NCBI GenBank assembly: GCA_964016885.1
Contig: OZ024742.1
Location: 336,040,001 to 336,104,000 of the forward strand
Length of the DNA: 64,000 nucleotides
From: Eledone cirrhosa
Taxonomy: Eukaryota
Reading direction: 5' to 3'
A program made the translations under genes and the position numbers. Shown piece after piece: positions 1 through 60,008 of this stretch; position 1 is the first letter of the stretch; every line of letters begins with the position of its first letter. The notes under the pieces are model-generated. The model worked only from the letters and a program-made list of their open reading frames with translations, was not told the origin of the DNA and did no database searches.

Positions 1-129
1 CCACACCACTACAGCTACTACAGCCACAACACACCACTACAACTACTACAGCTATAACACACCACTTCCACCATAACACGACAACTACAGCTACAACACA
101 TCAATTCCACCATAATACCACAACTACAG

Positions 130-1905
130 CCACATCACACCACCAGACCACTACACCACACCACAACACTATACCACGCTACATGTCTAACAGGATAAAC
201 ACAACAGTACACCATTACACCACATCACACCACCAGACCACTACACCACACCACAACACTATACCACGCTACATGTCTAACAGGATAAACACAACAGTAC
301 ACCATTACACCACATCACACCACCAGACCACTACACCACACCACAACACTATACCACACTACATGTCTAACAGGATATACACAACAGTACACCATTACAC
401 CACATCACACCACCAGACCACTACACCACAACACTATACCACACTACATGTCAAACAGGATAAACACAACAGTACACCATTACACCACATCACACCACCA
501 GACCACTACACAACACCACAACACTATACCACGCTACATGTCTAACAGGATAAACACAACAGTACACCATTACACCACATCACACCACCAGACCACTACA
601 CCACACCACAACACTATACCACACTACATGTCTAACAGGATAAACACAACAGTACACCATTACACCACATCACACCACCAGACCACTACACCACACCACA
701 ACACTATACCACGCTACATATCTAACAGGATAAACACAACAGTACACCATTACACCACATCACACCACCAGACCACTACACCACACCACAACACTATACC
801 ACACTACATGTCTAACAGGATAAACACAACAGTACACCATTACACCACATCACACCACCAGACCACTACACCACACCACAACACTATACCACACTACATG
901 TCTAACAGGATAAACACAACGGTACACCATTACACCACATCACACCACCAGACCACTACACCACACCACAACACTATACCACACTACATGTCTAACAGGA
1001 TAAACACAACAGTACACCATTACACCACATCACACCACCAGACCACTACACCACACCACAACACTATACCACACTACATGTCTAACAGGATAAACACAAC
1101 AGTACACCATTACACCACATCACACCACCAGACCACTACACCACACCACAACACTATACCACGCTACATATCTAACAGGATAAACACAACAGTACACCAT
1201 TACACCACATCACACCACCAGACCACTACACCACACCACAACACTATACCACACTACATGTCTAACAGGATAAACACAACAGTACACCATTACACCACAT
1301 CACACCACCAGACCACTACACCACACCACAACACTATACCACACTACATGTCTAATAGGATAAACACAACAGTACACCATTACACCACATCACACCACCA
1401 GACCACTACACCACACCACAACACTATACCACACTACATGTCTAACAGGATAAACACAACAGTACACCATTACACCACATCACACCACCAGACCACTACA
1501 CCACACCACAACACTATACCACACTACATGTCTAACAGGATAAACACAACAGTACACCATTACACCACATCACACCACCAGACCACTACACCACACCACA
1601 ACACTATACCACGCTACATATCTAACAGGATAAACACAACAGTACACCATTACACCACATCACACCACCAGACCACTACACCACACCACAACACTATACC
1701 ACACTACATGTCTAACAGGATAAACACAACAGTACACCATTACACCACATCACACCACCAGACCACTACACCACACCACAACACTATACCACGCTACATG
1801 TCTAACAGGATAAACACAACAGTACACCATTACACCACATCACACCACCCGACCACTACACAACACCACAACACTATACCACACTACATGTCTAACAGGA
1901 TAACC
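130..1905. repeat. 90-bp minisatellite, about 20 near-identical copies, very C/A-rich on + strand
   Basis: Unit catgtctaacaggataaacacaacagtacaccattacaccacatcacaccaccagaccactacaccacaccacaacactataccacacta recurs every 90 bp. The 529-aa ORF is simply its in-frame translation. Confidence 0.97.
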
Positions 1906-2155
1906 ACACCAAACCCCTACACAACCGTCACAAACGGCTTAACAATTCATGTACCACCAACACTAACAATAACATTTCCAATACCGTTACCACCACCGCC
2001 ACCGCCAATAGCGTTCGATTTTATTTTTCTGTTTTAGTATTACATAGATACATATATAATCTATACATTACATGAGTAGTACATACACATGAACTCAGTA
2101 GCACACACATACATACACACACACATACATACACACACACATACATACACACACA

Positions 2156-51973: not shown

Positions 51974-52545
51974 CTACAGAAATATGACATGGTCAATATT
52001 CTCGGTTGTATTTTGGAATTGAATGGCTTCACTGTCTCTGTTGATCATTAGGTATTTCATAGCTTTTTTCTGCTCTTGGAAAGCAAAATTATAGCATTCG
52101 AAATGTGAATTGCCGCAACGGTCATGAATCCAAGAGCGACTACATTTCATGTCAATGTTAGTATTATCCTCTAATTTACAAGAAACATATCTCTGCATAG
52201 GTTTTTTGAGGTAATATTTCTGTATCAATATTTCTGTATCAAGTCTATGCTAGACCAGAAATATTGGGGTTGCATGAGAGGTTATCAGGAAGTGAGTGCT
52301 TCTTGAGGAGTCCACTATCAACCTGAGTACATGTGGTTTTACTCACTCTCGAGCACTTGGTTGATGCATCACATTTTTGCTTCCATTGTTTGGCAGATGC
52401 TACTTGATTGACACCATACGACATTCAAAGGTTGTCTACACAGTTCTTACAGCACTTCTACTAGCTTCCTTTCTTATTAGGTAAAGCCTGTTGATATCAC
52501 TGCTATTGTGGATGGTCCCCGGTCATGTCAACATATTGAACGGTT
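51974..52545 (-). pseudogene. Decayed R4/Dong-type (RLE clade) non-LTR fragment, post-RT region
   Basis: IHNSSDINRLYLIRKEASR (cf. DxxRLYxxRxxGGRG) and KKPM...ID...S.SW...SHFE.Y.FAFQEQ...KYL...ENIDHVI. Confidence 0.7.
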
Positions 52546-52632
52546 TAATACATACGTATGTATGTATGTATGTATGTATGTATGTATGTATGTATGTATG
52601 TATGTATGTATGTATGTATGTATGTATGTATG

Positions 52633-54790
52633 TGACACCGATTCGCAGCAAGGATGGCAAAGAACTTCTTCGTGATTCACAGGGAATTCTACGAAGGTGG
52701 CGAGAGCACTTTGATGATCTTTTGAATCAGCCGTCTGTCGTCAGTGAAGATTTCCTCAATCTCATTCCGGAAAGTCCTGTGAAAGTAGCTCTCGCAGAAC
52801 CTCCGACGCTTGTGGAGGTTGCAGTGGCTATTTCGAAGCTGAACAGTGGAAAATCTCCAGGTATGGATGGCATACATGCTGAGCTCCTACAATATGGTGG
52901 TGAGAGACTCCTGCAACATCTTCACTCTCTGTTTGGAAGGATATGGGCTAATGAATCCGTGCCTGAGGACTGGAGAGATGCAGTAATGGTGGTCTTGTAC
53001 AAGGGAAAGGGTAACAGGAATGATTGTGGGAACTACAGAGGTATATCATTGCTTTCTGTCGTAGGGAAAGTTCTATGTAGGGTGCTTCTGGACCGTCTGC
53101 TGACACACATTGCAGATTGTGTCCTTCCTGAAAGTCAATCTGGTTTTCGTGCTGGACGCGGCACTACTGATATGATCTTCTCAGCTAGACAGCTCCAGGA
53201 GAAGTGCATTGAACAGGGCTTGGATCTGTATCAGGTTTTTGTCGATCTGACAAAGGCTTTCGATACTGTCAACAGAGATGCATTATGGAAGGTTCTCCAG
53301 AAACTTGGTTGCCCTGATAAGTTCCTTGCTTTAGTTAGGTCTTTCCATGACGACATGAAGGCTTGGGTTAATGTCGGAGGTAACATGTCGGAGCCTATCT
53401 CAGTAAAAAATGGAGTGAAACAGGGGGATATTCCAGCACCGACCCTGTTTGCCATATACTTTGCAATGGTTTTCAGTTTTGCATTCAGGAATTGCGAGCA
53501 TGGTGTTTACATCCGATATCGAACCTCAGGCAGCATATTTAACATCAGGCGCTTTGCTGCGAAGACAAAAGTATTTACATCAGTCATAAGAGACCTCTTG
53601 TATGCAGATGATTGCGATCTTGTAGCGCACACAGAGAGTGATATGCAGTACATTTTGAATGTATTTTCTGACGCTTGCACTGCCCTGGGTTTGACTGTCA
53701 GTCTCAAGAAAACCGTCGTCATGTACCAACCTGCCCCTAGTAAGCAGTACACTGAACCAAACATCTATGTGTATGGCAAACGACTTGGAGTGGTTGATCA
53801 GTTTGTCTACCTGGGAAGCACCGTCAATCGATACGGCAACCTTGACAGTGAAATCTCACTTAGGATTAGGAAAGCAAGTGATGCTTTCGGAAAGCTAGAA
53901 AGGCGACTCTGGAGTCGGCGAGACATATGCAGGAGGACAAAGGTAAAGGTGTACAGGGCATGTGTACTCTCTTGTCTTCTTTATGCCTGCGAGACCTGGG
54001 TCACATATCGACGCCACCTTAAGCAATTGGAGCGTTTCCATCAGATGTGTCTCAGACGGATCCATGGCGTTCACTGGAGGGACCACATCAGTGATGTCGA
54101 GATTTTGGAAAGCTCTATGTGTGACAGTATAGAAGCTCTTGTGCTTAAGCAACGACTCCATTGGAGTGGTCACCTTGCCAGGATGAAGGATTCTATAGAA
54201 TACCAAAACAACTCTTCTATGGAGAGTTGGTTAAAGGAAAACGACCGCCACATAAACCAAAAAAGAGGTATAAGGATTCCTTGAAAGCCTCTCTGAAAGA
54301 CGCTAACATCTCTGCTGATACATGGGAAAATATTGCTGCTGATCGTAATAAATGGAGAAAGACTGTATATGAGGGAAAAGTTGCCTTTGAGGCATCTCGA
54401 ATCGCACACGAGAAAGTAAAGCGGGACGTGAGGAAGGGCATTGCTGTTGCACTTCCAGACGGCGAGGGTCCTCCTATGGTTCTGACTTGCAGCGTCTGTG
54501 CGAGACTCTGCCTAAGCAAAGCTGGACTCGAAAGTCATCTTTGCAGTCATAAAATAAGACCAGTGGTTGACTACCAGGCTGCTGTTGGAGATGCTACTCA
54601 TCATGCTTGCCAAACATGTGGTAGAGAATGTAAATCAGCAGGAGGGCTCAAGCGACATGCAAAAGTACACGAACTCCAACCACAGCCGACTATTTCCAGT
54701 GAATGTTTTGGTTTCCGACTCTGTGCAAGACATTTTAGATCATTGGCTGGGCTAAAAAGCCACATTCGATCGCAGCACTGTTAGTTGCTA

Positions 54791-58947: not shown

Positions 58948-58980
<33 letters not shown>

Positions 58981-58986
<6 letters not shown>

Positions 58987-59688
58987 TTGGCGCTCTGAAA
59001 TAGCGATATATATATGAATGTATATATAGTGTATTTTGCAATACATGTATGCTTAATTAAAAGCATTTCGAAGACCTTATGCTATTGTTTTTAGAGTAGT
59101 GACAGTCTCACTTACTTTAAATATTCAGCAAACAGGGTAGATAAAGCTGACAGAGCTATGTTTCGTACTGATTGGTACTTATCAAAGCCAAGTACTCCAC
59201 CTGCCCGCTGAAAATCATGAATGTTTGATTCTTATAGAATTTCTAGTAATAATCAGGAACTGATTATACAGAGCAGTTGCCGGTCAAGCAGAAATTGAAA
59301 ATTAGAATTGGCGCTCTGAAATAGCGATATATATATGAATGTATATATAGTGTATTTTGCAATACATTCATATATATATCGCTATTTCAGAGCGACAATT
59401 CTAATTTTTAATTTCTGCTTGACCGGCAACCTCTCTGTATAATCAATTCCTCATTATTACTACAAATTCTATAAGAATCAAACATTCATGATTTTCAGTG
59501 GGCAGGTGGAGTACTTGGCTTTGATAAGTACCAATCAGTACGAAACATAGCTCTGTCAGCTTTATCTCCCCTGTTTGCTGAACATTTAAAGTAAGTGAGA
59601 CTGTCACTACTCTAAAAACAATAGCATACGGTCTTCGAAATGCTTTTAATTAAGCATACAGGGTATTGCAAAATACACTATATATACA

Positions 59689-59695
<7 letters not shown>
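58981..59695. mobile_element. Tandem plus inverted ~321-bp monomer with a U3-A8 variant hammerhead on each arm, in (TA)n
   Basis: ttagaattggcgctctgaaatagcg... occurs at 58981 and 59302. 59362-59695 is the reverse complement of the monomer. HHR(+) 59517-59561: ggct-TTGATAA-gtac[caatca]gtac-GAAA-catagctctg-TC^agct. HHR(-) 59145-59189. Confidence 0.88.
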
Positions 59696-59725
<30 letters not shown>

Positions 59726-60008
59726 CAAGAAAGAAGAGTGACATGGTTCGCTATACATTGCTGACAATTGTTTCTTTGATCTGGTAGGTCTAGAGTTCGC
59801 TATCCGCCTGAGTAAGTGGACTGCCTATAACGATAACCTGTTATTCCGTATATATATATATATGAATAAAGTTAGTCCTTCATCAGTGATCTTCCAACCA
59901 TCATTGGTATTTCATCGCTTTAAAGACCATATACCTCCGGTTGGTGCGAGCAACGGCTAAAAATAGTCGTTGGGACACGTAAATAAAGGGGACACGAGAG
60001 TGTAAACA

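What the first reader, a model, noticed from the sequence alone, without database searches (positions are those of the whole stretch)
58981..59695. Retrozyme-sized 321-bp monomer, tandem and inverted, with a compensatory U3-A8 hammerhead core
The left arm is one monomer plus ~65 bp of the next and the right arm is a reverse-complement monomer. The core reads UUGAUAA instead of CUGAUGA: the C3-G8 tertiary pair is swapped to U3-A8, a double change that preserves pairing and argues for selection on catalysis. Stem II is gtac/gtac, the site is GUC, and stem III contains the palindrome AGCT. Monomer size and tandem junction fit non-LTR retrozymes propagated via circular RNA.
Basis: partly seen in the sequence, partly recalled or inferred. 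Interest (0 to 1): 0.75.

Follow-up and report, generated by a model that had tools for sequence, protein, structure and literature searches.

The report
Retrozyme copy with Penelope insertion footprint
This is one back-to-back copy of an abundant 321-base, protein-free repeat that carries a predicted self-cutting hammerhead RNA with a known base-pair swap; related subfamilies show the swap in both forms, and the insertion pattern suggests that Penelope-type jumping-gene enzymes likely paste it into TA repeats.

Summary
Observation confirmed. The element is a 387-bp left arm (one 321-bp monomer plus 66 bp) joined head-to-head to a 96% identical right arm, between two (TA)n runs. Each arm holds one type I hammerhead with a U3-A8 core. 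It is one copy of a genome-wide family: 1,360 exact U3-A8 cores, and 421 C3-G8 cores in sister subfamilies about 85% identical. The 3-8 swap is therefore real and set at family level. Six further stem pairs covary between subfamilies while the invariant core stays fixed, which points to selection on the ribozyme fold in source RNAs. U3-A8 is already in print, including in Penelope elements, and the oldest subfamilies here carry it, so C3-G8 may be the later state. The inverted arm and two fixed 3' ends 25 nt apart (one of each in 74 of 80 scorable inverted insertions) are Penelope-type footprints that rolling-circle copying alone does not explain. This copy has one ribozyme per strand, so it cannot release a circle. 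Cleavage and circular RNA are untested and the partner enzyme is unidentified. The scan has noted this kind many times on other DNA (48 notes, at least 5 genomes). New member of a known kind.

The parts
58951..58980 (.). Left (TA)n target microsatellite
58981..59367 (-). Left arm: one full 321-bp monomer (58981-59301) plus 66 bp of the next; its 3' end is the 'long' end (q321) at 58981
58981..59005 (-). 25-nt tail (q297-321), present at this outer end and absent from the outer end of the right arm
59122..59214 (-). Type I hammerhead of the left arm with extended stem I; U3 59185, A8 59180, C17 59149 (predicted cut 59149/59148)
59204..59206 (-). AAA-to-GGG change in distal stem I, rare in the family and shared with the right arm (59500-59502)
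59362..59367 (.). Head-to-head inversion junction; six bases can be assigned to either arm
59362..59701 (+). Right arm: q279-321 then q1-296; its 3' end is the 'short' end (q296) inside the monomer's own TA run
59492..59584 (+). Type I hammerhead of the right arm; U3 59521, A8 59526, stem II 59528-59541, GAAA 59542-59545, C17 59557 (predicted cut 59557/59558)
59692..59721 (.). Right (TA)n run, continuous with the short end

Best explanation
This is a two-armed genomic copy of a non-coding 321-nt hammerhead repeat family (an animal non-LTR retrozyme) that was likely reverse-transcribed into a TA microsatellite by the enzyme of a Penelope-like element. Shown: the family, its subfamilies, the covarying hammerhead fold, the TA target, the head-to-head arms and the two fixed 3' ends. 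Inferred steps: source loci with two or more units are transcribed; the hammerhead, with U3-A8 or C3-G8, cuts out monomers that are ligated into circles; a GIY-YIG/RT protein nicks both strands of (TA)n and primes cDNA from both DNA ends on the same RNA lineage, one strand at q296 and the other at q321; synthesis runs through the cleavage site and round the unit, stops at random points, and the two cDNAs join at their ends. This copy is likely a dead end: it has one ribozyme per strand, and a read-through RNA is predicted to fold into one long hairpin.
For: Family size: 1,360 U3-A8 cores and 421 C3-G8 cores, reversed controls 0. Covariation: among six subfamily majority states, 7 of 28 listed pairs change on both sides (3-8, 10.1-11.1, 2.2-1.2 and four distal stem I pairs), while U4, G5, A6, A9, G12, A13, A14 and C17 never change and only N7 does. 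On 54 natural copies 94.9% of cells pair, 94 cells change on both sides (shuffles 27.7, slid controls 6-35), and pair 3-8 reads UA 31, CG 19, UG 1, other 3. In the first 100 of 421 C3-G8 cores, pair 10.1-11.1 is A-U 75, G-C 23, G-U 1, A-C 1 (counted by hand). Layout: 117 of 180 insertions are head-to-head and 1 tail-to-tail; 74 of 80 with both ends classifiable have one long and one short end; 130 of 145 long ends abut TA against 9.5% of background positions. Template: 229 of 265 arms with an intact 3' end run past the cleavage site; 5' breaks do not cluster there (7 of 310 in q150-158); opposite arms share 35 rare alleles (null mean 3.6, max 10) and tandem neighbours 26 (null 2.1, max 7). Literature: partial tandems, an inverted 5' copy and a one-sided tail are Penelope features (PMC8557442, passages); a Penelope protein cuts and extends both strands of AT-rich DNA from two internal start sites that define the tail (PMC11167929, main text). 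TA-targeting Penelope-like elements with unbroken 713-aa frames and Hydra-clade motifs are present in this genome.
Against: No cleavage assay and no circle evidence. No autonomous element with a homologous terminal repeat was found: the two Penelope families compared scored within shuffle range, and none of the 60 single-orientation insertions inspected shared an adjoining upstream sequence. The tail is 25 nt, shorter than the published 30-40 nt. Only 35 of 677 and 26 of 576 rare alleles are shared within loci, and mean within-locus divergence is close to between-locus divergence; sharing could also come from unresolved sub-lineages, gene conversion or local duplication. An uncleaved linear multimer fits the same data, and in the one Penelope tested in vitro uncleaved RNA was the main substrate and ribozyme mutants still inserted (PMC11167929). 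Covariation counts come from about six related lineages, so they are few independent events. Three pairs break in one subfamily each, including pair 15.4 in this copy's subfamily. The active fold lies 2.3 and 5.2 kcal/mol above the predicted minimum in the two arms. Eight of nine predicted Xenopus retrozyme dimers did not cleave (bioRxiv 2026.07.22.740005).
Confidence: 0.8

Rival explanations
1. Same carrier, no circle: the template is an uncleaved linear tandem transcript of a non-autonomous Penelope-like element, and the hammerhead only trims transcripts or rides along.
For: All genomic patterns fit a linear multimer too. Ribozyme cleavage was dispensable for insertion in vitro (PMC11167929). 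One locus joins a C3-G8 unit to a U3-A8 unit (L064), which one circle cannot give.
Against: Arrays reach 14 near-full units that start at the short end beside TA (L238), which would need very long uncut RNAs. Persistent covariation suggests that the fold matters for spread. Circles are shown for similar repeats in coral, mussel and axolotl (PMC7229834).
Confidence: 0.3
2. The unit is only the 5'-truncated terminal repeat (pLTR) of a protein-coding Penelope-like element, not an independent non-coding element.
For: Same end structure and target as coding elements here. In L191 the unit follows a GIY-YIG coding end in the same orientation.
Against: Units continue head-to-tail into themselves, not into an ORF. 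No shared upstream sequence among 60 single-orientation insertions. The L191 coding family has its own, unrelated hammerhead repeat at the other 29 of 30 fetched loci.
Confidence: 0.07
3. A DNA-level foldback or satellite rearrangement, or LINE twin priming, made the inverted copy; the hammerhead is incidental.
For: Inverted repeats and AT-rich microsatellites are unstable, and twin priming gives 5' inversions (own knowledge). Junctions often overlap by a few bases.
Against: Neither predicts two fixed, different 3' ends paired one to one in 74 of 80 insertions, the lack of a poly(A) tail, or paired changes confined to ribozyme stems.
Confidence: 0.05

Closest known systems
Animal non-LTR retrozymes (Cervera and de la Pena 2020, PMC7229834, parts 2-4 of 6 read; Li, Clavereau and Pollet 2026, bioRxiv 10.64898/2026.07.22.740005, parts 1-3 of 5 read)
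   Same: Non-coding 321-nt AT-rich unit with a type I hammerhead, dispersed as monomers to multimers, coexisting with Penelope-like elements.
   Different: U3-A8 core in most copies; head-to-head two-armed insertions, TA targeting and paired 3' ends are not described in the parts read; no homologous pLTR found here, whereas 24 of 57 Xenopus families matched known elements, almost all Penelope-like; circles not shown here.
Penelope-like elements, Hydra clade, and non-autonomous forms such as MRC1 (Craig et al. 2021, PMC8557442, passages and section 11 read; Frangieh et al. 2024, PMC11167929, main text read)
   Same: 5' truncation, partial tandems, inverted 5' copy, tail at one end, (TA)n target, hammerhead upstream of two internal start sites.
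   Different: No ORF; tail 25 nt rather than 30-40; hammerhead is the full form with a long stem I rather than the minimal form.
Natural U3-A8 hammerheads (Perreault et al. 2011, PMC3088659, passages; Schistosoma mansoni Cercyon elements, about 1,300 hits, PMC4209133, passages)
   Same: Same covariation of the 3-8 pair, described as active in vitro in work cited by PMC3088659.
   Different: Here both states sit in sister subfamilies of one element, together with a G10.1-C11.1 to A-U change, so the swap can be placed on a tree.

Membership tests
Type I hammerhead ribozyme | Core YUGANRA / GAA / NUH with stems I, II and III; stem I open | tested here: met
Type I hammerhead ribozyme | Watson-Crick pair between positions 3 and 8 | tested here: met
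   U-A 1,360 and C-G 421 against C-A 8 and U-G 14 (mismatched cores counted only with U7 and G10.1-C11.1)
Type I hammerhead ribozyme | Rfam hammerhead model at the curated threshold | tested here: not met
   HH9 18.6 and 18.2 bits against 52
Type I hammerhead ribozyme | Loop 1 - loop 2 tertiary contact | not tested
   An internal loop in stem I and a 6-nt loop II are present; contacts were not modelled
Type I hammerhead ribozyme | Self-cleavage after H17 | not testable with these tools
   needs an assay
Non-LTR retrozyme | 150-450-bp AT-rich unit in tandem, with a type I hammerhead | tested here: met
   321 bp; about 34% G+C over scored columns; tandems up to 14 near-full units
Non-LTR retrozyme | No protein coding | tested here: met
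   Stops in all three sense frames; no frame of 90 aa or more over the element on either strand
Non-LTR retrozyme | Two consecutive hammerhead-bearing units ('active' by Li et al. 2026), this copy | tested here: not met
   One per strand here; 40 of 181 family insertions have two or more units spanning the hammerhead in one arm
Non-LTR retrozyme | Expressed as monomeric circular RNA | not testable with these tools
   No RNA run was listed
Non-LTR retrozyme | Long target-site duplication when present | tested here: inconclusive
   Flanks are TA runs; only 5 of 60 single-orientation insertions gave a 6-12-nt candidate, mostly AT-rich simple sequence
Penelope-type insertion (non-autonomous) | Partial tandem with inverted 5'-truncated copy | tested here: met
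   117 of 180 head-to-head, 1 tail-to-tail
Penelope-type insertion (non-autonomous) | Tail at one end only, from two start sites | tested here: met
   74 of 80 long plus short; 25 nt against the published 30-40
Penelope-type insertion (non-autonomous) | (TA)n target | tested here: met
   130 of 145 long ends, background 9.5%
Penelope-type insertion (non-autonomous) | Homology to the pLTR of an autonomous partner | tested here: inconclusive
   None for the two families compared; other families were not surveyed
Autonomous Penelope-like element | RT plus GIY-YIG ORF | tested here: not met
   no tblastn hit of the 713-aa protein in the window

The most novel reading that the evidence does not exclude
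The family records a ribozyme core pair flipping back from U3-A8 to C3-G8 in one lineage, followed by G10.1-C11.1 to A-U, with each version still spreading. It spreads as an RNA circle copied from both ends of a cut in TA DNA by the Hydra-clade Penelope element that itself carries a U3-A8 hammerhead, and the chimeric locus L191 is a captured template switch that names this partner.
Probability: 0.2. Interest if true: 0.6.

Novelty: new member of a known kind. Interest (0 to 1): 0.35.

Why it matters
The class, the U3-A8 variant and the proposed Penelope link are all in print, so this copy is ordinary. Its value is as test material. Sister subfamilies supply natural U3-A8/C3-G8 and G10.1-C11.1/A-U ribozymes in one sequence background. 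The fixed pair of start sites gives an exact prediction for an in vitro reaction with a Penelope protein, which would test how animal retrozymes are mobilised and whether a circle is the template.

Tried and rejected
ADAR-type editing footprint (prompted by the AAA-to-GGG change in both arms): no A>G over T>C bias across units (270 against 244, p 0.2). The distal stem shows raised A>G (4.8%) but also raised T>C (3.2%), explained by an unresolved older subfamily. Rejected at family level; the triple change itself is unexplained. Self-cleaved linear monomer as template: 5' breaks do not cluster at the cut site. Expression: no RNA holder listed, which is no evidence either way; two contig runs were laid and only confirmed that the triple change is rare. 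Partner search: a Pfam accession I recalled was not in the library. Pfam gave only weak RVT_1 hits on 2 of 8 flank peptides and nothing useful for the 713-aa frame; PDB gave nothing. Its Penelope/Hydra assignment rests on motifs read by eye against PMC8557442 section 11. That young family has no sequence likeness to the unit and no CUGANGA in its 3' region. L151, a second locus with an endonuclease upstream, is unrelated to L191. Rfam miRNA hits at 59307-59399 reflect the central hairpin only. The first C3-G8 count of 1 misled, because that subfamily has G7; corrected. Rows dropped before counts: blast hits under about 31 nt, TA-only hits, duplicate loci (L022, L097, L119), the partial array L149 and, L111; indel-prone and TA columns were masked. 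In one search, 5 of 58 picked rows were left out (four with large deletions, L004, L108, L165 and L102, and one short row, L129) and the window's right arm was added. Loci were picked by similarity or exact pattern, not at random; the pattern-picked subset gives the same layout (67 of 99 head-to-head; 42 of 46 long plus short). Literature searches listed no paper on this family or on cephalopod retrozymes; only listings were seen, and the library is partial. PMC1986816 (kinetics of 3-8 exchanges) is not held. Supplements of the papers were not read and may list U3-A8 cores in Hydra elements.

Full report
Setting. The window lies on contig C3 of a 3.0-Gb animal genome rich in microsatellites. 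It looks cephalopod-like from my recall of its short repeats; I did not test this. Coordinates 'q' count along the monomer on the ribozyme strand (q1-321 = reverse complement of 58981-59301).

Observation. A 67-nt exact repeat recurs at 321-bp spacing, and a 299-nt inverted pair is 96% complementary. The left arm (minus strand) is q256-321 followed by q1-321, ending at 58981 against (TA)n. The right arm (plus strand) is q279-321 followed by q1-296, ending near 59701 in (TA)n. Each arm has one hammerhead: U3 59521 and C17 59557 on plus, U3 59185 and C17 59149 on minus. Stem II has 4 bp, stem III 3 bp with a 6-nt loop, and stem I 4 bp, an internal loop and a long distal helix. Rfam's HH9 model finds both sites only weakly. 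There is no coding frame.

Family and core. A DNA search gave 2,121 first-look candidates, 39 of them scored. Exact patterns with stem II fixed and U7 gave U3-A8 1,360, C3-A8 8, U3-G8 14 and C3-G8 1. The one C3-G8 hit led to a sister group about 85% identical, with the same ends and core CUGAGGA. With N7 free there are 421 C3-G8 cores; in the first 100, pair 10.1-11.1 is A-U in 75, G-C in 23, G-U in 1 and A-C in 1. From 203 loci I took 182 insertions and 500 units and sorted them into six subfamilies by diagnostic columns. Between their majority states 58 of 321 columns differ. Seven of 28 listed pairs change on both sides, two change to wobbles only, and three break in one subfamily each. The invariant core bases and C17 never change, and only N7 does. 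The pair count on 54 copies agrees (94.9% paired; 94 double-change cells against 27.7 in shuffles and 6-35 in slid controls), with the caveat that these are about six related lineages. The mismatched cores (0.6% and 1.0% of 1,360) match the background T>C and A>G rates (0.96% and 1.08%). So genomic copies decay neutrally, and the constraint acted on the RNAs that founded each subfamily.

Direction of the swap. Median divergence from the own-subfamily majority is 6.5% and 3.7% in the two oldest U3-A8 groups, 2.9% and 3.8% in the C3-G8 groups, and 2.4-2.5% in the youngest U3-A8 groups, which include this copy. On a 42-unit tree the C3-G8 units form one clade (support 0.99) that branches among U3-A8 units. 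Without an outgroup this is suggestive only: C3-G8 may be a return to the standard pair within this family. Four of the 11 oldest-group units that cover the core are C3-A8, but those loci were fetched by that very pattern, so I draw nothing from it.

Insertion anatomy. Of 180 insertions, 117 are head-to-head, 59 single-orientation, 1 tail-to-tail and 3 complex. Among head-to-head insertions with both ends classifiable, 74 of 80 have one end at q317-321 and one at q290-297; 37 more had an end elsewhere. Long ends abut TA in 130 of 145 cases, against 9.5% background. The short end falls in the unit's own TA run, so its TA contact is partly built in. 5' ends are spread over the unit, with 7 of 310 in q150-158 where about 9 are expected, and 229 of 265 arms pass the cut site. 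The template was therefore not a cut linear monomer. Opposite arms share 35 rare alleles (null 3.6) and tandem neighbours 26 (null 2.1), out of 677 and 576. Arms thus tend to come from one template lineage, though conversion or local duplication could contribute. In this copy both arms carry a rare AAA-to-GGG change. Both units carry the same core type in 74 of 75 multi-unit loci.

Mechanism. Published Penelope insertions are partial tandems, often with an inverted 5' copy and a 30-40-bp tail at one end (PMC8557442). A purified Penelope protein cuts and extends both strands of AT-rich DNA and starts at two internal sites that bound the tail (PMC11167929). That accounts for the layout here if each strand uses one start site, which is my inference. 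Retrozyme circles are shown in coral, mussel and axolotl, and Penelope elements were proposed as carriers (PMC7229834; bioRxiv 2026.07.22.740005). Whether the template here is a circle or an uncut multimer cannot be told from DNA; I put about 60:40 on the circle. This copy cannot make one: it has one ribozyme per strand, and the 721-nt read-through folds into 337 base pairs that cover the whole core. Forty of 181 insertions have two or more hammerhead-spanning units in one arm and are possible sources.

Partner. Two coding families with TA-abutting double ends were examined. One is young, with unbroken 713-aa frames. The other has a similar endonuclease end and its own hammerhead, with 1,904 exact cores, 98 of the first 100 U3-A8. 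Neither is homologous to the unit beyond shuffle scores. In one locus (L191) the unit's 5' end is fused inside that second family's hammerhead at a 2-nt overlap. This could be a template switch or a later deletion, and it is a single case.

Comparison and verdict. It works like an animal non-LTR retrozyme moved by Penelope-type priming. The family meets the sequence-level criteria; circles and cleavage are untested. U3-A8 is published as a natural covariation (PMC3088659) and in about 1,300 Schistosoma Penelope-linked motifs (PMC4209133). The scan holds 48 notes with these words in at least 5 genomes and several on this genome. A sequence look-up found only an unrelated note, so this exact family may not have been written up. 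The window itself holds 12 more hammerhead-like motifs. New member of a known kind; interest 0.35.

Noticed in passing
window 5653+, 18014-, 18213+, 19803-, 21159-, 21253+, 24650+, 25555-, 25694+, 34521-, 40318+, 56679-: Twelve further hammerhead-like motifs of several unrelated families, all with C3-G8 cores, three of them as head-to-head pairs (shuffles 0-1).
   Followed up: partly
L191:2206-2700 (G000:C1, near 174.38 Mb): The retrozyme's 5' end is joined at a 2-nt overlap inside the U3-A8 hammerhead of a GIY-YIG coding element; a possible template switch.
   Followed up: partly
L240-L268; pattern count: A coding Penelope-like family with its own U3-A8 hammerhead (1,904 exact cores) and two TA-abutting 3' ends roughly 130 nt apart.
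   Followed up: partly
L234:1401-3542 and L205-L233: Very young Hydra-type family with unbroken 713-aa frames, a 3' region of about 1 kb, two ends about 90 nt apart, and no CUGANGA found in its 3' region.
   Followed up: partly
L064:1404-2017: A C3-G8 unit directly followed by a U3-A8 unit, the only mixed-core locus of 75.
   Followed up: partly
L238:4827-9418 (G000:C1, near 93.46 Mb): Array of 14 near-full units starting at the short end beside TA; units differ from each other by 8-17%, more than dispersed copies do.
   Followed up: partly
window 59204-59206 and 59500-59502: Three adjacent A-to-G changes shared by both arms, all compatible with G-U pairing; cause unexplained.
   Followed up: yes
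window 59721-59850: The right flank, read on the minus strand, holds a GAAAC-AATT-GTC stretch like the 3' half of another hammerhead, without a recognisable first half.
   Followed up: no
window 52485-54784 (+): Long reverse-transcriptase-like frame with zinc-finger-like C-terminal motifs, RTE-like by recall.
   Followed up: no
window 125-1908: 90-bp minisatellite, about 20 copies, 97% matches.
   Followed up: no
L117 and L119 (G000:C1, near 26.51 Mb); L029 and L030 (C2, near 384.6 and 385.0 Mb): Insertions duplicated with their flanks in inverted orientation; segmental duplication or assembly duplicate.
   Followed up: no
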